From: the human T2T-CHM13v2.0 reference genome, Homo sapiens
Strand: one strand, 5' to 3'
DNA: 64,000 bases
Assembly (NCBI RefSeq): GCF_009914755.1
Contig: NC_060925.1
The position numbers and the translations under genes are program-made. Under the pieces are notes generated by a model. That model had not been told where the DNA came from and did not search any database. It saw nothing but the letters and a program-made list of their open reading frames with translations. Positions 1,199-63,803 of the stretch are shown in pieces. How positions within the stretch are numbered: position 1 is the stretch's first letter; every line of letters starts with the position of its first letter.

Positions 1199-2036
1199 CT
1201 AAATTACTTCACGTCTCTGAGGCTCTGTTTCCTCATCTGTGAAAGAGGCGAAAACCATACCTCATAGTACTGCAGTGAGAATTAAATGAAATAAAGGCTG
1301 CCAGGGTAGCCCATTGTCTGCCACACTGTGATTACTCTAGCAGTAACACAGCCCAGGAGTGAAAGAGGGATGAGAAGGAGGCCAGTTTAAGATGCAGCAC
1401 TTCTGAAAATATAGAGACTTGTGTTCAAGAGCTCACTTGGTGATCAGTTCATCGGGTGGCAGTGGGCAATTCACATCACCTCTCTGGGGATCAGTTTCTC
1501 ATTCTGGAAAATACAGGATTAGTCTTATAGGATTAGCCTATAGGGAAGTGTCCTTTTCAGCTTCAACCTTCCGAGATTCTTCAAGTTGATGTCATCATCC
1601 CTGGAATTCTCCCCTCCAGCCAGGTGTCGATAGGGTTACTGGGGGAATCATTGAAATCTTTCTGAAATTGCAAGACTTCACTCATCTCCTGACTCTAATG
1701 AGAATTTAGTTCTGTTTTCCTGAGGGGAAGAAAACACTGCAGTCTTTCCTAATCTCCTCACATTCTGCTGTGTGACCAGGCAAGCATTATTATTACTATT
1801 CTTTGCTGTCTCTGCATATTATTAAACTGATGCCAAATTCAACTTGGCATTTCCAAAAAAAGAGTTTCTGAAATGCAGACTGCTTTGGGATGTAAGATTT
1901 TTATGCAAATACAAAACATTAATATATTTCAAAACTTGAAGCACTTTGCTCTCCAGGAGAGAAAGAAGCTTATTTTCAGATGCTCAATTCAGCGTTTACT
2001 TAATAAGTGTTTAAAGTTGTAAGGCAGATTCTTTAA

Positions 2037-2488
2037 CTCCTCCCTTTAGCTTTTTCTCTTTCTTTCTTTCTTTCTCTTTCTTTCTCTTTCTCTCTCTCCT
2101 TCCTTCCTTCCCTCCCTTTCTCTCCTTCCTTCCCTCCCTTTCTTTCCTTCCTTCCTTCCTTCCTTCCTTCCTTTTCTTTCTTTCTTTTTCTTTCTTTCAT
2201 TCTTTCTCTCAACATTTTCGCTCTTGTTGCTCAGGCTGGAGTGCAATGGCGTGATCTTGGCTCACTGCAACCTCCGTCTCTGGGGTTCAAGTGATTCTCC
2301 CACCTCAGCCTCCTGAGTAGCTGGGATTACAGGTATGAGCCACCACGCCTGGCTAATTTTTGTATTTTTAGTAGAGACAGGGTTTCAACATGTTAGCCAG
2401 GCTGGTTTTGAAATCCTGATCTCAGGTACTCTGCCCGCCTCAGACTCCTAAAGTGCTGGGATTACAGGCGTGAGCCACCATGCCGGCC
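2037..2488 (-). mobile_element. AluS whose tail is expanded into CT/CCTT/CTTT microsatellite (2037-2210)
   Basis: Antisense Alu body 2212-2488 preceded by a polypyrimidine tract. Confidence 0.9.
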
Positions 2489-2930
2489 AGAATTCGCTTT
2501 TTCTAAAAGCTGGTTGTGAGGAGCAAGCTTCCATTTAATGGCCTCAAGGTAAAACTAATTATGGAGTATGGAGGAGGAGGTGCGTAAGAGATGTGGTCCT
2601 ACCTGTTACCATAGCAACTGCATATATTCTTCTTTTCCTCTTCTTCCCCATCAACTCTATGAAATAGCTTTTTGATTTATGTTGCCAAACCTCCAGAAAC
2701 ATTGTGGCATTTTGCCTTGCCAGAAGTAGGTAAACAGAGTCCATAAACCTGGAGAAGACCAACTTTTTTCCTTGAGAAAGTTGGAGAATGGAGCAAAAAT
2801 TAAATTAAGAGAAAACAGGAAATTTTATGTGTCCCCTGAGATTCTGTCAAAAGATTGATGCTCATCACCAACTCATACAGCTGGATGCAATGTGTGAGTG
2901 CAGAGGGGAAATGGAGGGAGGTTTGCATAA

Positions 2931-3699
<769 letters not shown>

Positions 3700-37876: not shown

Positions 37877-39259
37877 TGAACTCCTGACCTCAGATGATCC
37901 TCCAGCCTCGGCCTCCCAAAGTGCTAGGATTACAGGTGTGAGCCACCACACCCAGCCTCAATGATTGCTATTTCATTCACTAGGTTTTTATTTGTTCATT
38001 AGGGAATCTGTTATTACTATTAATTTTGATGCTCAAACTGGCCAGTGAGACTGCCTTTAAGCTCAGTTCTGTGTCCTTTTTACATGTCCCCAAAATTCTG
38101 TGTTATGTCCTTACTTTCTGGTACAGTCAGATGTTTCAGCTTCATCTTTCCTGCCCCAGTCCTGGAACTGACCATTTTCTGTAGGTAGCCCTGGATCCTT
38201 TTGGTGAGTAGTGCCATTTAGAATCCATGACTTTGGTCCTTGTTTTTTTCATTACTACTGGGATGTGTCTTTCTCAGTGGACATAGCGAGAGAATTTGAT
38301 TAAGTGTGTGTATTTACACATTACATCTATATTTCTAATCCATCTCTATATATTAAAAATATACAAGCTCATACTGATATCTCCAATTCTAATGAAATGT
38401 TCCAGGATTCTTTCTAGTTTTCTCCTTCTCTGTTCTTTCCCCTTCCTCCGTCCCTCCCTCCCTCTCTCTCTGTCTCTATCAGTCTCTCTCTTTCTTCCTT
38501 CCCTTCCTTCCTTCCCTTCCCCTTCCTTTCTTCTTTCCCTCCCTGCCTCCCTCCCTCCGTCCCTCCTTCCTTCCTTCCCTCCCTCCCTCCTTCCTTCTGT
38601 CTGTCTCTCTCTCTTTCTTTTTATGATGGAGTCTTGCTCTGTCATCCAGGCTGGAGTGCAGTGGTGCAATGTTGGCTCACTGCAACCTCCGCTTCTCTGG
38701 TTCAAATGATTCTAGTAGCTCAGCCTCCCAAGTGGTAGGAATTACAGGTACACACTACCACACCCAGCTAATTTTTGTATTTTTAGTAGAGACAAGGTTT
38801 CGCCATGTTGGCCAGGCTGGTCTCGAACTCATGTGATCCGCCCCTCTCAACCTCCTAAAGAGTTGGGATTAGAGTGTGAGCCACCGCACCTGGCCCCTCT
38901 CCATATTTCTAAACTCCTTCTCCAACAGGGAGAAGGCTGGCTGCCATTACCCTTAATATATTTACTGACTGAATCCTGCACGGTACTCTTTTCACTGCCT
39001 TTGCCCTTTCCTTTCTTTTCTCCTCCCTCCTTTAACCTGTGTTGATGTCTTTCTCACCTCTTTTGGGCTACGCCACCCTGCTTACCCCTCTCCCTCGGCA
39101 TGAATGTCCTCCTCACCTGCCTTGAGCTGGGTCATTTCCTACGTGGAAGCTCTCTTCTCCCGTCTTGGGCTGTGATATCTCATGCCAGCCCTCTCACTGA
39201 GTAGATACTATCTTTAACCTGCTCAGGCCTCTAGACCCCCTGATGGGCCTTCCTCCTAA

Positions 39260-39585
<326 letters not shown>

Positions 39586-39989
39586 TGAGTCACCGTGCCC
39601 GGCCCCCACCACCAACCTTCTCTGGCTCTGACACCCTGTGCCCCCTCCTCTGGGATGTCCCCTGGATGGAGGCCCTCTTCCCTCTGCTCAGTCTCCAGAA
39701 ACCTGTACCTCAGGCTCTGGCAATGTCCTCCTCAGTCTGCTTGGTTTCTGATGCCCTAGCTGTCTCTGGGTTATTGCAGAAGGTGAGCCTCCTTGTGGAC
39801 CCTCTTCTTGCCCTGCTCAGCCTTCGATAGGCCATATCAGGCTGCCTCCCTATGGGGACACCTCCTCACCCTTCGTGGTCTCTGACACCTCATGCAGCCT
39901 CTGTGGCTCTCCCCGCAACACCTGCCTTGTTCAGCCCCAGCTACCGGCTTGTGGTTTGAATTATTCAAGAAGGAAAGAAAAAGAAAAAG

Positions 39990-41208
<1,219 letters not shown>

Positions 41209-43231
41209 AATTCTTTTCTTTTTAGAAAAATCCTTTATTAAAACATGAAAATAATCTGAATAAATTCAAGCTATTGGTTTTAGTCTCTATTGCTTCATTA
41301 TTAACAAATGCATATATAAAATACCTAGTAACCACAACACTGGACATTTTGAATCATGCATTAGAATGTTTGTACTCTAAAATCAGAGTTAAGGGCCTGC
41401 CACTATTGCTTGCACTTTCAATCAGACCCAGTTTGAATTTAATAAGCATGTAAAATAAACTCCTTGATTCAGAGGAATTCTGGGAAATAACAAGGATCCA
41501 TGCAAGTTTCAACTCAAAAGTTGGGTTAATAATTGCTTAGAAATGCAGGCAGAAACTCCACATCTATCACAATGCTGCTTCAGAACAGGGATAAGAGTCA
41601 TACACAAAAATGTTAAAATTAGGACCATTAATCAGTTTTAAAAGGCTTATATGCAAATCCTGGTCCATCTGATTAGAGAATGATGTACAAACTCTGGGAA
41701 AAGAAAGAGAATTGAGGGATGTACAGTCTTAAGGAGCTGTTAATTTTCTTGGTGATTTACTGACAACTATAACAGGAGAGCATAGGTGGTTTAGGGGGAT
41801 GGTTAAGATGCTCTTAGGCAGAATGGTTTCTTTTCTGATTCATGCTAATAAGCATTACCTGCATAGCTCCCTAGGGAAAAAATGATAAAGAGCAGGGCTA
41901 ATACAATGTAAACTCAAGCTATCAATAACCTCAAATTTAGCACAGCCCTCTGCTTTTTAAAACTGTTCACCAAGGGATCCTTCCAAATAGGATATAATTA
42001 ATAGCCAACAATGTTCATTAATAAACTAGAAGAAATCTGCTTGAACCAACAGCACCGTGAGAATGTAAGCTCCTGGAGGCCAAGAATCTCTTCATATTTT
42101 TGCATATCACAGACACATGAAGAGTCAACATGAGACCACAGTAACTTTGAAAAGTAATTAACTGTATACTTTCAAGACTATGAAAAACTCATAGTATATT
42201 TTAGCATTTAGACGTATTAACATGGCTGTTAAGGGTAATCTTTAATTGTTCCAAGTAACTGAACTGCTGACATCATTGTAATATGTAGTGCTGTCCCCAG
42301 ATAGCGCAGATGTCTGAATATTGCTTGGTTATTCCAATGTCTCTAAGACCAACTGACAGCATAGGACATTTCGAGAGGAGCTATAATCAACTTAACACAG
42401 CCTTTTCCCTGTGTGTCAGTTGTCATGTAAGAATTAAATATTCAAGAGGCACTATTTCTTAGATCTACATCACTTATCTTTTTGTTTTTTCCCTGGGAAA
42501 ACAAGGAAATGTAGATCCAGTCTTTTCAGGGATAGTCAAGGTGCTAACAGGCCAAGATAGACATCAGGTGAAAGGGAGTGAAGTCACCCTAGTTCCACTA
42601 TTATATTCTGATGTGAGCTGTGTGATTCCTCAGATCAAGAAAGAAACTAGTTTGCTGGGTTCTCCTTGATAAAGAATAAGCGGTCACAGGGCATAGACAC
42701 GTCTATGTTAAACAAGGTTTCACACCCCGCCCACCCAAACATATTCACTGGCTATTCCTTTCAATCCTTCTGCTTTGCATCTTTAAATCTTAACTCCCTA
42801 ATCATAAGCATGAGAGAAATCCGGCTTATCCATGTTCTTGGGAGTTTTTTTAAAACATTAAACTCACAAACTTCTCTCCCTTTAAAAAAAAAATGTACCC
42901 AGGAAACCAATGGAGAAAGATGAGGAGACAAAGCAGAAAGTACAGCGTTCTACAAAATAAATGCCTGTTGCTGAAACATTGTAAGCAAAAAACCCACAGA
43001 GCAGCTTCAGTGGGGCCTTGGTACATTTGTTCCCAGGTTAAGCACTATAAAGGTTTAATTTCAACAGCTCTAACCCTCTGATTTAGGAAACAAACAGGAC
43101 CTTTAACCTTTAACTTACATAAAAGTTGATTATTTCTCACACAAAGATAAATTCATATACATTCATACTGTTCTAAAAGAAAGTACCTTTCATACGCTCT
43201 TTAACCAGAACATTTTTTCCTTTTGTGCAGC

Positions 43232-43494
43232 TTTTTTTTTGAGGCTGGAGTACAGTGGTGTGATCCGGATCACTGCAACTCCGCCTCCCAGGTCCAAGCG
43301 ATTCTCCTGCCTCAGCCTCCCGAGTAGCTGGGACTACAGGCATGTGCCATCACACCCAGCCAACCCTTGTACCTTTAGTAGAGACGGCGCTTCACCATGC
43401 CGGCCAGGATGGTCTTGATCTCTTGACCTTGTGATCTGCCCACCTCGGCCTCCCAAAGTGCTGGGATTACAGGCATGAGCCATCACACCTGGCC
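43232..43494 (-). mobile_element. AluSc-like inside the Cyrano retrocopy, with clustered T>C changes
   Basis: ggatggtcttgatctcttgacc Sc diagnostics; the linker reads ccaacccttgtaccttt instead of ctaatttttgtattttt. Confidence 0.92.
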
Positions 43495-44487
43495 TTTGTG
43501 CAAGTCTTGATTGCAGAGCCCTACAAACTCAAGTAGTATCACTTATTCTATTGTACAACCTTGCTAATGCAGATTACTATACATGCACAAACTTATTGCT
43601 ACTAAAATTCTACCTCTTGAAAATTACTATTCATTTTATGGCTTTTTTTTTTTTTTTGCAACAGGAAATATCCTTTCCTATATACTGTGCTATTCTGTAT
43701 TCATTAGCTTTTCAGTTTTTTTTTTTTAATTTTTTTAATTTAAATGCTTTTCAGTAATGGATTCTCCCAGGAACTAAACTACATAAGCCAAGAGTATAAC
43801 TACACCAAATACACTACGAGAATCTAAACTTGAGTCTCTGGAGACCTGCTGCCAGAGTCTACTTGTTCTAACCTGTGTATGCACAAGATACATCACATTA
43901 TAATAGTTTTGCATGTGCTATCATGCATCAGTTATGTAGAATCTGTGTCAGCAAATGCTGGACTCTATCTAATACTGAAATTTAAAAATCACCTCAGAAA
44001 ACTGCCACTTCTGAGTTCTCAAGGCAGCTTTTAGAGGTAGGAATTCCTTCTCTACAGAAAGCTATCTTATTCTTTCAGAGCAAAACAACTGTTTCATTTC
44101 CACAAGTAAAGTAGATAAAAGTGAAAGCTGTCCGAGGCTTACTATACCCAAGAGAAAGAGTCTACTTATTATGTAGCAACCTAGGTAGGTGCCACCCAGC
44201 TACATTTCCAGTTCTCATGAAAAGGTCTGAAAATCCCATCAATAGACAATTCGGCGCATTTGGAAACAGGAAGAGCCCTAACAAATAATCGAATACTCCA
44301 AATTACTGAGTGTTTGCACACAGCATGCTGCAAACAGGAAATGTAAATGGTTTGCAGATTAGAAAAGCACTCACTGAAGCAATTAACAGCATCTCCATAA
44401 GACATGCAAAATGTAATTTCTTGACATACAAGGAGTAGGAAAAGAATGAACCTAGAAGACGTGTCATGTTAAGACATGAAAAGAGCA

Positions 44488-44736
44488 GGCCGGGTGGATT
44501 ACTTGAGGTCAGGAGTTTGAGACCAGCCTGACCAACACGGTGAAACCCCATCTCCAATAAAAATACAAAAATTAGCTGGGCATGGTGGCGCATGCCTGCA
44601 GTCCCACCTACTCGGGAGGCCGAGGGACGAGAATCACCTGAACCCAAGAGGCAGAGGTTGCAGTAAGCCGAGACTGTGCCACTGCACTCCAGCCTGGGTG
44701 AGAGAGTGAGACTCCATCTCCCCACCCCCGAAAAAA
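44488..44736 (+). mobile_element. AluS inside the Cyrano retrocopy (about 50-bp left-arm deletion), inverted relative to 43232-43494
   Basis: TSD aaaagagca. Confidence 0.92.
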
Positions 44737-45103
44737 GAGCAAAGCAGAATAATTAAATGGGGTCTCATTTTGACTTGAGGTTTCATAAGACACAAAGACA
44801 GCTGGTTTCCAGACACCTTATGGAAAGCTGAAATGTCCTCAAACATAGTATCTCAGATTTTGACCCCATATTTCTATTCATAAATGAGTCTTTTGGGCCT
44901 TAACCTCTTTTCCCCAGGGAGAATATAACATATTTAGACATTATGGAAAAAGAAAAGTTTTAGATTTTCCACTCTTTTTACACTGTTATTATCAATAATT
45001 CATCCTGAAGTTTAAAATCACTAGGCTCATGCACTAACCCCTAACATGGCACTACAATATGCTACCAAGCACTAATGCTTACAAAACTATACATATCTTA
45101 AAG

Positions 45104-45129
45104 TGGAAGACATTGGTGATTTTGTTGTT
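45104..45129 (-). promoter_or_regulatory. Extended miR-7 complementary site (Cyrano TDMD trigger sequence)
   Basis: Minus strand AACAACAAAATCACCAATGTCTTCCA: 8mer seed match to miR-7 (UGGAAGACUAGUGAUUUUGUUGUU), central internal loop, then extensive 3' pairing. Confidence 0.93.
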
Positions 45130-46426
45130 CTTAAACAACTTTTAACATTTGTCCACAAGTATTAAAATACACATATATATATACATTTCTATTGCACATA
45201 TCCTGTTTTTGTTTAACTTTTCAAAAGAAAAACTGCCAGCTAACATGGATGAGCAAGGGAAGGGAAGGAAGCATGGCTACAAATCGACGTACAGTCCTGC
45301 CTAAAATTATAGCTTTTCCTATCAAAGGGACCAAAATAGACAAGAAAAAAATGTAGATGTATTAAGTAAACACTGGGCAACTACAGCTGCAATATATCCA
45401 TTTTGTTAAAGGCATCTGATCTGAACCATGGAAGATACAGAAACAATTTCAAGAGCATTAAACACTGGTTCTCTCAACTGTGGAATGAAAAAAATATAAA
45501 GTATATACACTGAGTCTGATAGCTATTTAAACAAGTGGGCCAGAGCCGGTTTCAATGGTGCCAAAAGTACAGGTACTCTACCACCCGTCAAATGATCCTA
45601 CCAAAAAAGATGCCAGAAGTACACACAGAAGATGGGTTAACAGACACCTGGAAGGTACAAATTCTCCATGATATGACATTTTCAACATACTAGTGGAACC
45701 CATATATGTAGGCTCCATTCTGTCTTGAACAATTCCAAAATATTAAAGAAAAACATCAGGAAGTAGGTAGATTACTTAGAGAAAAATTTGAGTTACTTTT
45801 AAGCAAAGATTTTTACTGTGCTTTTATCACTCACTCAGTAGTTGCCCTCAAAAAAAGAAATATTTTATATATAATATGTAATTATTTTACTAAAAGTATT
45901 TTTTACCCATTTCAAATGGGTTGATTGACCAATCTCACTAATAGTAAGAGTGCTCAACATTTCCAATTTTGGGCCATTTTTATCACTCTCAAATTTTGGT
46001 GAATCTTCGCTATTCCTAGCATCATAGCATTGATGGACCTGAGTAAACATTCCGGAAAACACAGAGATGTTCCAAAACTCTCTGTTCTTAATTTCATCTA
46101 GTTTCAAAATTTATTCTCTACTCACAAAGAAGCATAAAGGTTTCACTCTTACATAAAGACCTGACAGTACACACAATGGTCCTCTGCTGATTTGGAAGCA
46201 AGGACAGTTTTCTACGACAGTCTGTTCTTTATAACTGTTGTGGGAAAAAAAATCAATTTCTTATTGTAATTATTTTTCTTGTTTGAAGTTTCTTTTCCAC
46301 GATGACCCAACCGCAAGTTTGGGAACATTGCTTCTGAGGCCCATGCTCTGATGAGAAAGTCCAGTCCCAACTGGGGACAGTACCTGAGTCCCAGCCTTTT
46401 CAGCCTAACATTATACCTAATATCTA

Positions 46427-47212
<786 letters not shown>

Positions 47213-47701
47213 TAGTATCTTTCACGTTAAATTAGAAACACATATTTGGAATTTACTGCTGCAGCCTCAGCTGTGCTTATCATGGTAGTGGCTGAAAGTG
47301 GAAGACTTTTTTTTAAACCCTGAAGTCATCCATACTTGCTACTTCTTTAGTCTTCTTGCTTGGAATGAAAAGTATTCACAAATACCACCACCTAAGCACC
47401 TGTTTCAAATGAAACTCAGCCCTCAGCTTGAAAAATGATGTCTTTATAATTAAGCAAACAGCAGAAGACCCATGCGAGTTGCTTCTTTCTCCCTGGAGAT
47501 GTTGGCAGGATAACTGGAATCCTAGGAGCTCCTCTGTGTTCAACTTCAGAGGCAGAACAAAAAGGAAAGTGGCCTTTTCCATTCCAAATCACGGAGGTAA
47601 TGTGTAGAGAAGTGATAGCCACATTTCAAGCATAGGGAAAGTAACTTGGTAAAAGAAGCAGGACTACCCACTCTAGGAGACAACATAGAGACACTTGCCA
47701 A

Positions 47702-49089
47702 TGAGAGGTGACAGCGTGCTGGCAGTCCGCACAGCCCTCGCTCGCTCTCGGCGCCTCCTCTGCCTGGGCTCCCACTTTGGCGGCACTTGAGGGGCCCTTC
47801 AGCCCACCGCTGCTCTGTGGGAGCCCCTTTCTGGGCTGGCCAAGGCCGGAGCCGGCTCCCTCAGCTTACAGGGAGGTGTGGAGGGAGAGGCGCGAGCGGG
47901 AACCGGGGCTGCGCGCGGCGCTTGCGGGCCAGCTGGAGTTCCGGGTGGGCGTGGGCTTGGCGGCCCCGCACTCAGAGCAGCTGGCCGGCCCTGTCGGCCC
48001 CAGGCAATGAGGGCTTAGCACCCGGGCCGGCGGCTGCGGAGGATGTACTGGGTCCCCCAGCAGTGCCGGCCCACCGGCGCTGTGCTCTATTTCTCGCCGG
48101 GCCTTAGCTGCCTTCCCGCGGGGCAGGGCTCGGGACCTGCAGCCCGCCATGCCTCAGCCTTCCCCGACCTCCGTGGGCTCCTGTGCAGCCCAAGCCTCCC
48201 CGAGGAGCGCCGCCCCCTGCTCCACGGCGCCCAGTCCCATCACCACCCAAGGGCTGAGGAGTGCGGACGCACGCCGCGGGACTGGCAGGCAGCTCCACCT
48301 GCAGCCCCGGTGCGGGATCCACTGGGTGAAGCCAGCTGGGCTCCTGAGTCTGGTGAGGATGTGGGGAACCTTTGTGTCTAGCTCAAGGTTTGTAAATACA
48401 CCAGTCAGCACCCTGTGGCTAGCTCAGTGTGAATGCACCAATGGACGCTCTGTATCTAGCTACTCCGGTGGGGCCTTGGAGAACCTTTACGTCTAGCTCA
48501 GGGATTGTAAATACACCAATGGGCACTCCGTATCTAGCTCAAGGTTTGTAAACACACCAATCAGCACCCTGTGTTTAGCTCAGGGTTTGTGAGTGCACCA
48601 ATCGACACTGTATCTAGCTACTCTGGTGGGGCCTTGGAGAACCTTTGTGTCTAGCTCAGGGGTTGTAAACGCACCAATCAGTGCCCTGTCAAAACAGTCC
48701 ACTGGGCTCTACCAATCAGCAGGATGTGGGTGGGGCCAGATAGGAGAACAAAAGCAGGCTGCCCGAGCTAGCAGTGGCAACATGCTCAGGTCTCTTACCA
48801 CGCTGTGGAAGCTTTGTTCTTTCGCTCTTTGCAATGAATCCTGCTGCTGCTCACTCTTTGGGTCCACACTGCCTTTATGAGCTGTAACACTCACTGTGAA
48901 GGTCCGCAGCTTCCCTCCTGAGCCAGCGAGACCAGGAACCCACCAGAAGGAAGAAACTCAGAACACATCCCAACATCAGAAGGAACAAACTCCAGACGCG
49001 CCACCTTAAGAGCTGTAACACTCACCGCGAGGGTCTGCGGCTTCATTCTTCAAGTCAGTGAGACCAAGAACCCACCAATTCCGGACACA
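47702..49089 (+). mobile_element. LTR12C (ERV9/HERV9) solo LTR
   Basis: Starts TGAGAGGTGACAGCGTGCTGGCAG and ends CCAATTCCGGACACA. CpG-rich 5' U3 and tandem CCAAT/TATCTAGCT enhancer repeats. 4-bp TSD ccaa at 47698-47701 and 49090-49093. Confidence 0.95.
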
Positions 49090-49176
49090 CCAAGTCCTGA
49101 GTTCAGAATTTTGTTTTTGAGATGAACATAAAAGCACCTAAAGGTCAAGGAAGATGTTCTTCCTGTGATAAGGAAC

Positions 49177-49219
49177 ACAAAGCCTGTTTGGTGGTCTCTT
49201 CACACGGAAGCGCATGACA
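49177..49219 (+). mobile_element. 3'-terminal fragment of a HERV-H LTR7-family LTR carried inside the retrocopy
   Basis: acaaagcctgtttggtggtctcttcacacggaagcgcatgaca matches the recalled LTR7 U5 end and stops abruptly at the antisense splice-donor position. Confidence 0.8.
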
Positions 49220-49777
49220 GTTCGCTTTAGTGTAGATGACCACTCCCCTCTGTAAGGTAGGGAGGAAGAATGTTCGGTTAGTTCCTTTCCTCCGGCCGAT
49301 CTCTTTTTTTTCTTCTGGCACGGTCCAACAGACACTCCTGGCACTTGGCTTCCCGGGGGCTGCTCGCCCCCGGCCCAGAGGCCGGTTTCCAGCGGCAGGC
49401 CTTATTCCACCATCTTTGCAGCTTCCAATTCTTTTCATGTTAAGTTGTTTTTTGGAGAGATATATAAATTTATTTTGGTCAGTATTTGTCTTATATCTCT
49501 TTTTCCAAATTCTTTATGTTCCAATTTTTGGGGTAGTATTGTTTTAAGTGTCTCTTACATACTATATCTAGATATATCTTTACTCTGAGAATTTTTTAAG
49601 AGGCAGTTTAAAACCGTTACCTGTACTACAACTGCAAATATACTTGAATTTATTTCTTTTATATTATTTTGTGTTTGCAATTTAATATTATCTTTGTTTC
49701 TCTTCTTATATCCAATTGTGTAGGTGAAGTTTTCTTTGTTTCATTTCCCTCTGTTTGTTTAAAAAGTTGTATTTTCT

Positions 49778-53895: not shown

Positions 53896-56800
53896 TTTTT
53901 TAAACAAAATTCGCATTTTATTTAGATTGATATAAATTATAGTTTATTTTCTTCACCAAAAAATAACTGCAATATTTTCCGTATTTTTCTAGATAAGCCA
54001 ATACACTTATATTTGTAGGTTTTCCGGGTTTTTCTTATAAATCAAGATGAGGCAATAGGTAAGAGTCATGAAAAAAGACAGAAAAAAAAGATAAATCAGT
54101 TGTCAGTATCCATAGCCTCTGATTCTGTCTTAACCGTGAAACAGAAGTGGTCAACATATACTTACTAAAAAAGCTTAGGAAAATGTAGGCTCCACAAAGG
54201 AATATAAACAGCAACAACTAGATGTGGAACGACAGCAGGCTCTTCCATTCAAACTTTAACTGTCATTTGTTCCTTTAAGTTCATTTGTGAAAGATAAAAA
54301 TCTACCCTGAAATCCTTGTTTGGCAAGCTCACAAGCGTCTCTTTCTCTGGTAATTTCTTGTAACTGTCCAATATAGATTTTTAACATACTTAAAACTCCT
54401 ATTAGTGAAAGGTCAATTGTGGGCTTCACTGTAACATTTTATAAAATGTATTCCTTCCTCTCATACCTCTTCAAAATATGTTTCTTCAAAGAATTGGTAA
54501 CTCAACACCCAAGGAGCAGAGATCCACAGTGATAATAAATGCGGTGTCTCAAATGACTTAAACAATTGCAGAGTGCCACCCACAGAGATCATGCGGAAGT
54601 GAAAGATGACACTTTCAATGTTCTGTTCTGGAAGAACAGACAGGTCTTCAAAGCATGCGGGTTCAAACGGGCCATTTAAACAGGTAGATTATCAATGGCT
54701 AATGTATTCAATGGAGGCCTACAGGCAAAGATATTAAGTGATTAAGGCCTACATACACCTTATGGCTTTCCTTCCAAATATCGAATATAAGAAAGACTAT
54801 TTTTAAAAGTCTCAGGTATTTTCCATGGTTTCTGAATTATCTGTGGGAAGCTCTGACTTACTGTTACAGAGTTTAATATATGTGTCCACCAATAAATCCA
54901 GGTCATGTTTTATATCAAAATTTATGTTAATCTAAGCCAAGTTACTTGACCTTTGGTCTGTCAAAGTGTTCCTCAAGTATGCTTTAAGATGCTTTCGTCC
55001 ATTTTCATACTGCTCATTCTCAACCTTCATCACAGGAGAAATACACAGGACCTTTGGCAATAGGTCATTTAGCATACACATTAGGAAAAAACTTGATGTC
55101 AGGCAGATGGAGGGCTTCATAAATGGTGGACAGAAGCTCTGTGTCTTTCCCCATTTCCATTTGATTCTCCAACAATGAAGCTCGGCTGAGAGCATGTCGG
55201 GATTGGGTAAGTCATTTCTATACATGTCAGCATGGTGTTCCTCCGATGTATTGAATTTGAGTTGTCCCATGACTGAGGGTACCAGAGATAAGCATTTACG
55301 AGCTTGGAGGTGCTGTTCTGCGATTATATCTTTAAGTTCCTGAATAATGTGCTCCACTGTTGGGACACTTAGGATTTCTTTATAGTAACTCTCAGAGGTT
55401 AGCTGAGATTCCAAGTTACGCTGGTAAGCTCTGCAATATTTCCCAGGGAGTTTCATTTGAATATCAAGTTTGGTTGCCAAATTTGTGGCTTCCTCAAATC
55501 AAAATTCCTGATAAACTTCAATATTCTCCGTCACTTCACTGAGTGAACGCAGTGCTGCAGTCAAGCTACTGGCTGCAAAGAAGACATCAAAGGTTTGCCC
55601 CTGGAGATTTTTCCCAAAGGCTCTGGTAAAAGATAGGACATTTTTAAGAACAACAATAGTAACAATGAAGTCAAAATCTGTTACTGCACTGCAGAGTACA
55701 AATGCTCAGCCAGCTACAGTTATTCCATCTAATATTTGTGTCACTATTTATATCATCTAAACATAAAACAAATGCTTGCAGAAGTTCCACTACAATTTCA
55801 AAAACATCATGCCTGCCTGTCCACTGAGAATGGCAGAGTTCCTTCAGTTCTTTGTCCCTTTCTTTACTGTTCTGAAAAAGAACAGAAATTACATTGTCAA
55901 ATTCTAAAAGCAGTTGTGGTGATTGATGGAAAAAAAGAACAAACTCCGTCAATTGTTCCTGATGCAACAGATACTCCCATAACAGGTACTGATTTTACCA
56001 ACCACATATTTAAGACGCAGGAAGAGCAGAGTGGGTAGATAGCTTGGGGATATTTCTCTAAAAGTCTAGAAGCAACAACTTTCATTTTGGAAGAAAATCC
56101 AGTAGACAAAATGTAAGCTTGGTCATGACAGTACTCCATATTTAATCCCCATTTCTCAGCTATCATAGTGTGAAATTTCACAGCCAAAACTTCTGCATCA
56201 GCTTCATAAGGCAGGAAGCCTACAAATTCCCCTCTTATGTTTTGAGACTCATCAACAAACCTCACCGAGACTCATCAACAAATCTCACCAACATAGGTAG
56301 GTGCCCTTCCCCTGCCATGTCCGCTACATCGTCAGTTATAATGGAAAAGAAGTGTGAGTCTCTCACTTCCCTGCATTCTTCCCGAATGCAGCTCTCACAG
56401 ATCTCTAGCATCTGCCTCTGCTGTGTTTTTAATAAAACAACATGTTAACTGCTGTTGTCTCAAACTGCTTTCTCAGGACCTCTTGACCAGAATTTATCCA
56501 GCACTCCAGCACGGCTTGCACGTTATCTGGAGTAAAGAGACCTTCTGGGATTTCATCAGCCTCCTGTCCATCCAGAGGTATGTTTTGCTTTCCCATCAGA
56601 ATCAAGATTTCAAACAGAGATTTTAGGTATCCTTTGTTTTCCTTCTTTTCAAGGGTTAGAGGTAAAATGTCCTCATCTGGCCCTTCACTCCCTTCTTTAC
56701 TGGGGTTCGGAGCATTGCTGTTGTTGGTTTCTTTATGTTTTTGTTCCTGTTCAGAAGTTTCATCAACAATTCTTTTATTCGTTTTCTGGGTCTACTAGGT

Positions 56801-57174
56801 GGGTTGTTCAAATGACCAGTAAGAGCAAATATTGTTGGTATTGCATTATCTCATAGAACTGTCCTATAAGGACTAGTTCTACAGACCCCAGATGTCTCAA
56901 AATGTTTGGCACCTCATTGATCATGTTTAGTTGATCATCCCTGGGGCTGGGGAGGGCAGCCAGGCCAGCCAGCGCGCAGGGCAGGGGCGGGCGGAGGAGA
57001 AGCCTGGAGGAGGCTGACGGGAAGCCTCGAGGAGGGGCACCCCGGTCCGAGGCTGGGCTGGGAACGCTGCTCCACAGCGCTGTGAGTGGCCGGGAGGACT
57101 TACCGCCACCACCGCTGCCTCTGGGGCATCTCCCACCCGCCCGGGATGCTGCCGCCTCCTTTCCACAATGCCTG
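53896..57174 (-). pseudogene. Processed pseudogene of THAP12 (PRKRIR/P52rIPK)
   Basis: Minus-strand ORF fragments (RFVDESQNIRGEFVGFLPYEADAEVLAVKFHT; FFHQSPQLLLEFDNVISVLFQNSKER; ATKLDIQMKLPGK...LKAYLRNTLTDQRSSNLA) match THAP12 with many frameshifts. It is intronless, with a GC-rich 5'UTR remnant at 56940-57174, the stop remnant at 54812-54814, and a 3'UTR with AATAAA at 53917-53922. Degenerate TSD ttaatcaaattttttaa (about 53887-53903) / ttgatcaattttttaa (57175-57190). Confidence 0.93.
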
Positions 57175-62954: not shown

Positions 62955-63803
62955 GCCTTAGTCTGTTTGGGCTGCTATAACAGAAAACGATAGACTAAGT
63001 GGCTTATAAACAACAGAAATTTATTTCTTATAGGACTGGGAAGTCCAAGATCTAGACACTTATAGATTCTTTGTCTAGTGAGGGCCTTTTCCTTGGTTCA
63101 TCAATGGTGCATTCTCGTTGTGTCCTCAGATAATGGAAGAAGGAAATAAGCTCCCTGGGACCTATCTGATAAAGGCTCCTGTTCATAAGGGCTTCACCTT
63201 CATGATCTAATGACCTTCCAAAGGCCCTAACTCCTAATACCATCACCTTCATGATCTAATGACCTTCCAAAGGCCCTGACTCCTAATACCATCACCTTCA
63301 TGATCTAATGACCTTCCAAAGGCCCTGACTCCTAATACCATCACCTTCATGATCTAATGACCTTCCAAAGGCCCTGGCTCCTAATACCATCACCTTCATG
63401 ATCTAATGACCTTCCAAAGGCCCTGACTCCTAATACCATCACCTTCATGATCTAATGACCTTCCAAAGGCCCTGACTCCTAATACCATCACCTTCATGAT
63501 CTAATGACCTTCCAAAGGCCCTGGCTCCTAATACCATCACCTTCATGATCTAATGACCTTCCAAAGGCCCTGACTCCTAATACCATCACCTTCATGATCT
63601 AATGACCTTCCAAAGGCCCTGGCTCCTAATACCATCACCTTCATGATCTAATGACCTTCCAAAGGCCCTGGCTCCTAATACCATCACCTTCATGATCTAA
63701 TGACCTTCCAAAGGCCCTGGCTCCTGATACCATCACCCTTGAGATTAGGATTTAACATGTGAACTTGAGCGGGAAGGGATCACAAATATTCAGTTCATAG
63801 CAG
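62955..63803 (-). mobile_element. MaLR LTR (MLT1A/MSTD-like) hosting the VNTR
   Basis: ttagtctgtttgggctgctataacag...cttataaacaacagaaatttatttct...ggaagtccaagatc...attcagttcatagca is typical antisense MaLR sequence. Confidence 0.75.
63194..63737. repeat. 49-bp minisatellite (about 11 near-perfect copies) inside a MaLR LTR in the last RGS7 intron
   Basis: Unit catcaccttcatgatctaatgaccttccaaaggccctg(a/g)ctcctaatac, period 49 (63241, 63290 ... 63682). Confidence 0.97.

What the first reader, a model, noticed from the sequence alone, without database searches (positions are those of the whole stretch)
41219..49426. Spliced, TSD-flanked retrocopy of the lncRNA Cyrano (OIP5-AS1) downstream of RGS7
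Seen: an 8.2-kb minus-strand insertion (about 6.8 kb without the LTR12C) with a GC-rich 5' end, AATAAA plus A-tail remnant, and a 10-bp TSD (aattcttttc), splitting an old L1M. Recognised: the 5' sequence and the extended miR-7 site are those of OIP5-AS1/Cyrano. Inference: a long noncoding RNA was retroposed from its TSS region to a poly(A) site. With no ORF, protein-based pseudogene pipelines would miss it. It is a potential second source of a miR-7-degrading RNA, and a source of cross-mapping for OIP5-AS1 reads, primers, siRNAs and guides. I cannot tell whether it is already annotated.
Basis: partly seen in the sequence, partly recalled or inferred. Interest (0 to 1): 0.9.

Follow-up and report, generated by a model that had tools for sequence, protein, structure and literature searches.

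The report
Retrocopied Cyrano RNA with fossil edits
Human chromosome 1 holds a spliced DNA copy of the long noncoding RNA Cyrano that keeps its intact miR-7-binding site but is likely silent, and it carries clustered A-to-G changes that likely record RNA editing of the single molecule copied an estimated 20-30 million years ago.

Summary
Confirmed. Window 41219-49426(-) is a full-length processed copy of OIP5-AS1/Cyrano (chr15:39,090,186-39,110,654, T2T). Three GT-AG introns (1114, 647, 11,925 bp) are precisely absent, identity is 94.5%, and it has AATAAA, a 5-A tail, a 10-bp TSD and a later antisense 1388-bp LTR12. It is the only perfect Cyrano-type miR-7 site in the genome besides the parent. 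The core, however, diverged at the neutral rate, no promoter came along and the LTR points away, so it is most likely inert.

(1) In its inverted Alu pair, 14 of 85 ancestral A became G on the transcript strand, against 1 of 90 T>C (p 2e-4; against its own non-Alu rate 1.5e-6). All 14 lie in a predicted 211-bp duplex. The signature repeats in a separate chr2 copy (9 of 71 vs 1 of 69) but not in the chrX copy. This is likely ADAR editing of the template RNA, fixed in DNA.
(2) It is one of nine copies (about eight events) that record the parent's splicing before and after an LTR created its exon-2 donor.

Ten literature searches found neither point.

The parts
49427..49436 (.). Target-site duplication, copy at the 5' end
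49426..49426 (-). Extra G before the first parent-matching base (possible cap-templated G; also seen at the chrX copy start; could be a point change)
   Evidence: interpretation inferred
49315..49425 (-). Exon 1 of OIP5-AS1 (chr15:39090186-39090289), with a 7-nt insertion
49177..49314 (-). Exon 2 (chr15:39091404-39091542). Its last 43 nt (49177-49219) come from an LTR in the parent's intron 2 that supplies the splice donor (LTR7/HERV-H name recalled)
49090..49176 (-). Exon 3 up to the LTR insertion (its last 3 nt lie at 47695-47697)
47702..49089 (+). Solo LTR12 (ERV9), 1388 bp, 4-bp TSD at 47698-47701 and 49090-49093, antisense to the retrocopy. TATA-like motif (48747-48753) and TSS motif (48767-48778) each differ by one base from the form described in the review
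   Evidence: subfamily C recalled
41224..47694 (-). Exon 4 (chr15:39104205-39110654), colinear, with four shared Alus
46814..47122 (-). Alu 1 (sense to the transcript)
46424..46610 (+). Alu 2 (partial, antisense to the transcript); approximate ends
45104..45132 (-). Extended miR-7 (TDMD-type) site, identical to the parent
44490..44740 (+). Alu 3 (antisense to the transcript), with 5 copy-derived A>G at 44674, 44638, 44621, 44599, 44555; approximate ends
43229..43496 (-). Alu 4 (sense), with 9 copy-derived A>G at 43401, 43400, 43390, 43373, 43372, 43366, 43365, 43361, 43294
41234..41239 (-). AATAAA polyadenylation signal, shared with the parent
41219..41223 (-). Non-templated A5 tail remnant
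41209..41218 (.). Target-site duplication, copy at the 3' end

Best explanation
This is an intron-less DNA copy of the spliced, polyadenylated 6.8-kb OIP5-AS1/Cyrano RNA, likely made by LINE-1 proteins in the germ line an estimated 20-30 million years ago from a molecule that ADAR had likely already edited, and it is likely non-functional today. Steps: (1) the four-exon RNA was spliced and ended at the AATAAA site (shown by alignment); (2) its inverted Alu 3/Alu 4 pair formed a long duplex (predicted) in which about 12-14 adenosines were deaminated to inosine (inferred); (3) target-primed reverse transcription read inosine as G, copied the RNA up to its start and duplicated 10 bp of target (hallmarks shown, enzyme inferred from established knowledge); (4) an LTR12 later inserted antisense, 3 nt before the exon 3/4 junction (nesting shown); (5) the copy has since drifted neutrally and kept the miR-7 site by chance (inferred from rates). 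If transcribed in sense it would be predicted to trigger miR-7 degradation as the parent does.
For: Intron loss at three GT-AG junctions, TSD, tail, 94.5% identity. Editing: 14 of 85 ancestral A>G vs 1 of 90 T>C in Alu 3+4, Fisher p 2e-4; against 14 of 560 copy-private A>G outside Alus, p 1.5e-6; each arm alone 5 of 34 (p 0.003) and 9 of 51 (p 3e-5); 14 of 14 pair with U in the predicted fold. In 122 other Alus the same 48 columns carry at most 3 A>G, against 9 here. Independent chr2 copy: 9 of 71 vs 1 of 69 in its own inverted pair. Present-day OIP5-AS1 Alu editing is reported. Neutrality: core 11 of 299 differences (3.7%) vs copy-branch rate 2.8-3.7%, P(<=11) 0.57-0.86; a perfect 29-mer is expected with P 0.34-0.44. 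Upstream 300 nt have 26% GC and 1 CpG vs 53% and 21 in the parent.
Against: The editing signal was noticed post hoc (about 48 type-by-Alu tests; it survives that correction). It is absent in the chrX copy (3 of 65) and in Alu 1/2 of this copy (3 of 65). 12 of 14 sites have a 5' A or T, which also fits polymerase-eta clusters (recalled), and 8 lie within 41 nt. The 5'-G depletion (0 of 14, p 0.025) uses the parent's context; one site probably had an ancestral 5' G. The copy has a mild A>G excess outside Alus too (14 of 560 vs T>C 8 of 533). Silence is not shown: no expression data could be examined. The age rests on a recalled calibration.
Confidence: 0.78

Rival explanations
1. The copy is transcribed in sense, by RGS7 read-through or a cryptic or reverse LTR12 start, and acts as a second miR-7-degrading trigger in some cells.
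For: Site identical to the parent, duplex -29.5 vs -29.6 kcal/mol with miR-7 taken from the genome's own hairpin. Only 2 exact sites genome-wide. Flank needs are about 25 nt and sequence-independent (PMC13083262 passages). Same strand as RGS7, 10.7 kb past its annotated end. Some LTR12 are bidirectional. Longest ORF 96 aa.
Against: No purifying selection. No promoter carried. 19 AATAAA lie on the minus strand between RGS7's end and the copy. The LTR faces away and its two core motifs are altered. No RefSeq model in the table given.
Confidence: 0.08
2. The retrocopy is real, but the A>G cluster arose in DNA after insertion (error-prone polymerase, Alu gene conversion, or transcription-linked strand asymmetry).
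For: W-A context in 12 of 14 sites; tight cluster in Alu 4; mild A>G excess outside Alus; no signal in the chrX copy.
Against: Both arms, 1 kb apart and in opposite orientation, show the change on the transcript strand. The chr2 copy repeats it in another inverted pair over about 620 nt. No pool Alu carries these G (pool G frequency 0-9%; at most 3 per Alu). The 16% rate is far above the 2.5% background.
Confidence: 0.12
3. Segmental duplication of the chr15 locus.
For: None beyond length and colinearity.
Against: 13.7 kb of introns absent at exact splice junctions, no flank homology, tail and TSD present.
Confidence: 0.01

Closest known systems
L1-mediated processed pseudogenes (retrocopies)
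   Same: Intron loss, poly(A) remnant, TSD, dispersed site, no promoter; parent has Alu-rich last exon (PMC5199112 links such Alus to pseudogene formation; passages seen).
   Different: Parent is a lncRNA, the copy is unusually long and full length, and it carries an editing-like A>G cluster.
OIP5-AS1/Cyrano, TDMD trigger of miR-7
   Same: Four exons, miR-7 site between Alus that end at nt 1584 and start at nt 3283 of my model, matching the 1585-3282 region of PMC7430676; identical trigger site.
   Different: No promoter, antisense LTR12 inside, neutral drift, expression unknown.
APOBEC3 'DNA editing' fixed in genomic retroelements (PMC2873906, passages)
   Same: A cluster of one mismatch type records a deaminase acting during the retro-life cycle.
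   Different: That is G>A made on cDNA; this is A>G on the transcript strand, confined to inverted Alus, i.e. ADAR on RNA.
LTR12/ERV9 solo LTR promoters (PMC11853044, passages)
   Same: TG...CA ends, 4-bp TSD, 41-nt repeats, position of the TATA-like and TSS motifs.
   Different: Both core motifs carry a substitution here, and the element points away from the miR-7 site.

Membership tests
Processed pseudogene / retrocopy | Precise loss of parental introns | tested here: met
   3 of 3 introns, GT-AG ends
Processed pseudogene / retrocopy | Non-templated poly(A) after a poly(A) signal | tested here: met
   AATAAA, 10 nt, then 5 A absent from the parent; tail is short
Processed pseudogene / retrocopy | Target-site duplication at both homology ends | tested here: met
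   10 bp
Processed pseudogene / retrocopy | No parental flank or promoter; other chromosome | tested here: met
Processed pseudogene / retrocopy | L1 endonuclease consensus nick site | tested here: inconclusive
   T-rich, two bases off the recalled consensus
TDMD trigger (Cyrano type) | Seed pairing, central loop, extended 3' pairing to miR-7 | tested here: met
   Same duplex structure as the parent
TDMD trigger (Cyrano type) | At least 25 nt of flanking RNA, outside an ORF | tested here: met
TDMD trigger (Cyrano type) | Expressed in sense in miR-7-containing cells and lowers miR-7 via ZSWIM8 | not testable with these tools
   No RNA data; membership therefore not claimed
TDMD trigger (Cyrano type) | Purifying selection on the core | tested here: not met
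   3.7% divergence equals the copy-branch rate; low power for the 29-nt site alone
ADAR A-to-I signature | Excess A>G over T>C on the transcript strand | tested here: met
   14 of 85 vs 1 of 90
ADAR A-to-I signature | Confined to inverted-Alu duplex, both arms | tested here: met
   (duplex is predicted, not probed)
ADAR A-to-I signature | Depletion of 5' G | tested here: inconclusive
   0 of 14 in parent context, p 0.025; one site probably had an ancestral 5' G
ADAR A-to-I signature | Same positions edited in present-day OIP5-AS1 RNA | tested here: inconclusive
   Two published hg19 sites could not be placed on T2T: 217 compatible offsets
LTR12 solo LTR | TG/CA ends, 4-bp TSD, high-copy family, 41-nt U3 repeats | tested here: met
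LTR12 solo LTR | Subfamily C assignment | not testable with these tools
   No repeat library; name recalled
Segmental duplication | Introns and flanks retained | tested here: not met

The most novel reading that the evidence does not exclude
The copy is a DNA snapshot of one ADAR-edited germline Cyrano molecule from 20-30 million years ago, one of two such snapshots in this family, and this route is general and undescribed. L1 retroposition writes A-to-I edits into the inherited genome, so retrocopies with inverted Alus form a mineable archive of ancient single-molecule RNA editing, splicing and 3'-end choice. (The separate bold reading, an expressed second miR-7 trigger, is rated 0.08 among the rivals.)
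Probability: 0.55. Interest if true: 0.75.

Novelty: new variant of a known kind. Interest (0 to 1): 0.62.

Why it matters
It would let one ask directly whether Alu editing sites, levels and duplex partners in the germ line were the same 20-30 million years ago, and it shows a route by which RNA edits become heritable. A genome-wide scan of retrocopies with inverted Alus follows at once. In practice, OIP5-AS1 oligos and guides can match up to three other loci, pre-edited DNA copies can confound editing calls, and human Cyrano knockouts should check this second perfect miR-7 site. The nine copies also record how a deeply conserved lncRNA changed its splicing in primates.

Tried and rejected
Segmental duplication: rejected.
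Selection on the miR-7 site: not supported.
LTR12 as sense promoter: orientation is antisense by the motifs in PMC11853044.
Coding potential: longest ORFs 93 aa (parent) and 96 aa (copy), at different positions.
Rfam gave only two Alu/SRP hits.
L1M flanks: searches uninformative.
Placing two published hg19 editing sites on T2T failed.
Recalled GENCODE names for the region gave no usable coordinates.
The supplement of PMC5564778 showed no oligo sequences in the passages returned.
The chr19 matches (79-80%, nt 1587-1880 only) were not counted as a retrocopy.
The older copies were examined only within 1.5 kb of the matches, so their TSDs and 3' ends are open.
No other primate genome was available.
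Full report
Observation. The 10-mer occurs at 41209-41218 and 49427-49436; 14 of 100 shuffles give two matches, so its weight comes from abutting both ends of the homology. Rfam found only two Alu-type SRP hits.

Parent and mechanism. Searches of the own genome place the source on chr15. Exons are 39090186-39090289, 39091404-39091542, 39092190-39092279 and 39104205-39110654, all with GT-AG ends; introns of 1114, 647 and 11,925 bp are absent from the copy. Over 6,711 aligned columns identity is 94.5% (K2P 5.7%; 4.9% outside Alus). With Alus masked, the whole window has 11 matches to the 50-kb parent region: 8 exonic, 1 to a second LTR copy near exon 1, and 2 short matches (77-79%) far from the insertion. 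That the parent is OIP5-AS1 rests on three points: 3 of 3 published shRNA targets match it exactly (PMC6317922 passages); it has four exons; and its Alus bound nt 1585-3282 as in PMC7430676 (passages and Introduction). The 3' end follows a shared AATAAA by 10 nt and ends in 5 non-templated A. The 5' end has one extra G, as has the chrX copy. L1 as the enzyme is established knowledge, not tested.

The LTR. 47702-49089 lies on the + strand with a 4-bp TSD, 3 nt before the exon 3/4 junction, so it is younger than the copy. It belongs to a large family (81 matches from 40 scored of 4,373 candidates) and has 41-nt repeats. PMC11853044 (passages) gives a TATA-like heptamer and a TSS 12-mer. Both lie on the + strand here and each has one substitution; 6 of 7 compared relatives keep the heptamer. 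Any main transcript would run away from the miR-7 site. 'LTR12C' is a recalled name.

The miR-7 site. miR-7 was taken from the genome's own hairpin. The site at 45104-45132 is identical to the parent's and gives the same duplex (-29.5 vs -29.6 kcal/mol). A pattern search allowing one mismatch gives 3 places: parent, this copy, and one imperfect site on chr5. PMC13083262 (passages) reports that about 25 nt of flank of any sequence suffice, so the RNA would be predicted to work as a trigger. There is no sign of constraint: 11 of 299 differences in the core against a copy-branch rate of 43 of 1,163 and 62 of 1,832, P(<=11) 0.57-0.86, and 19% of all 29-nt windows are identical anyway. The copy brought no promoter, and 19 AATAAA separate it from RGS7's end. 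Expression could not be examined.

Fossil editing. The copy has more CpG than the parent (75 vs 59), which led to a substitution spectrum: Alu 4 has 20 A>G in 79 A, 16 of them in one 200-nt bin. I polarised each difference with 104-128 other Alus from fetched DNA, counting only ungapped columns with at least 10 pool letters where the parent base is the pool majority at 70% or more. This kept 85 of the 123 A in Alu 3+4 and set aside 11 A/G differences as parent-side changes and 1 as unclear. Result: 14 of 85 A>G against 1 of 90 T>C (p 2e-4). Against the copy's own non-Alu rate (14 of 560, polarised with chrX) p is 1.5e-6; Alu 3 alone 5 of 34, Alu 4 alone 9 of 51. The two Alus are inverted, form a predicted 211-bp duplex, and all 14 A pair with U in the fold. 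Of 122 ordinary Alus none exceeds 3 A>G at the same 48 columns; this one has 9. The chr2 copy, which ends before Alu 3, shows 9 of 71 vs 1 of 69 in Alu 1/2 (p 0.01; 1e-7 vs its own background). The chrX copy (3 of 65) and Alu 1/2 of this copy (3 of 65) show nothing. A strand-specific A>G cluster, duplex location and lack of 5' G are the ADAR hallmarks in PMC2873906 (passages). 5' G is 0 of 14 in the parent's context (p 0.025), but one site probably had an ancestral G. The test was post hoc; a factor of 48 leaves it significant. Present-day editing of OIP5-AS1 Alus is reported (one site in PMC11291244 passages; one at 40% in a supplement row of PMC6307200), but I could not map these to T2T. DNA-level clustered mutation remains the rival (0.12).

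The family. Searches with exons 1-3 and the start of exon 4 found copies on chr2 (nt 1-1918, tail and 14-bp TSD), chrX (1-2608 without 333-480, tail and TSD), chr5 twice (nearly identical, probably one event later duplicated), chr8, chr10 and chr12 twice: nine loci with this one, a lower bound. Searches with the miR-7 region and with the last 2 kb found only parent and this copy. The parent's intron 2 starts inside a 366-bp LTR with a 5-bp TSD that supplies the exon-2 donor (LTR7 name recalled). The chr1 and chr2 copies carry its 43 nt. The chrX, chr5, chr8, chr10 and chr12:123.85 copies do not, and the chr5 pair reads straight across the empty site. The chr12:51.6 copy lacks exon 2 altogether. 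A tree groups parent, chr1, chr2 and chrX (100/99) without resolving their order. Private non-Alu changes of 3.4-3.7% (chr1), 2.3% (chr2) and 2.9% (chrX) suggest 20-30 million years by a recalled calibration (about 3% per lineage since the macaque split); this is not tested.

Cross-reaction. Identical windows: 31% at 21 nt, 6.5% at 50 nt, none at 100 nt. Published shRNA targets match this copy in 2 of 3 cases, chr2 in 2 of 3, chrX in 1 of 3.

What is in print. The RefSeq table given lists nothing here. Searches for a Cyrano pseudogene or retrocopy, for lncRNA retrocopies, for local gene names and for edited RNA fixed in processed pseudogenes gave no listing that describes either point; two searches were background searches. 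For most hits I saw only listings and abstract starts. Passages of PMC3636048, PMC5199112, PMC3983040, PMC5564778 and PMC8172627 did not mention it. The library lacks most subscription papers: I did not read the original Cyrano papers (Ulitsky 2011, Kleaveland 2018), which may mention copies. bioRxiv supplements, GENCODE and retrocopy databases were not visible. Novelty is therefore 'not found', not 'absent'.

Verdict. A real and well-preserved lncRNA retrocopy, most likely inert. It is of more than routine interest because it likely preserves A-to-I edits of its template and belongs to a series of copies that records the parent's splicing history. Interest 0.62; new variant of a known kind.

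Noticed in passing
G000:C2:172651345-172653310 (L015/L016): Second young OIP5-AS1 retrocopy (1.9-kb isoform, long A tail, 14-bp TSD, inside what looks like a THE1 LTR by recall) with its own A>G excess in Alu 1/2 (9 of 71 vs 1 of 69).
   Followed up: yes
G000:C23:40021100-40023630 (L013): Retrocopy ending at nt 2608, about 250 nt before the miR-7 site; lacks the LTR-derived 43 nt and nt 333-480 (alternative acceptor or deletion).
   Followed up: partly
L040/L041 (chr5:178.46 and 176.47 Mb), L022 (chr8), L044 (chr10), L042 and L028/L043 (chr12): Older copies (84-88% in the shared stretch; chr8 76-95% by exon) with different exon-2 donors, one with an Alu-like 164-nt piece at the exon 3/4 junction and no exon 2.
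   Followed up: partly
G000:C15:39091500-39091865 (L008): Antisense LTR with 5-bp TSD inserted exactly at the ancestral exon-2 donor of OIP5-AS1, giving today's donor; a second similar LTR piece lies near 39088856-39088899.
   Followed up: partly
G000:C5:74813421-74813445 (L056): miR-7 site with seed and extended 3' pairing, one mismatch; may be chance.
   Followed up: no
G000:C19:6528280-6528887 (L005/L006): 79-80% matches to nt 1587-1880 of the parent only; old repeat or old fragment.
   Followed up: partly
window 63194-63737: 49-bp VNTR, 11 copies at 98% identity, in the last intron of RGS7.
   Followed up: no
window 54515-56935 and neighbours in the annotation: THAP12P8 lies 5 kb away on the same strand, and four more pseudogenes lie within 100 kb: a region rich in retroposed inserts.
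   Followed up: no
window 38000-40500: Strongly T/C-skewed stretch with simple repeats, two Alus and a pyrimidine-rich GC-rich segment (38900-39950) of unknown origin.
   Followed up: no
chr15 parent vs window 41224-47694: The transcribed parent has lost more CpG than the copy (59 vs 75), many in the Alus, as expected from gene-body methylation (inferred).
   Followed up: partly
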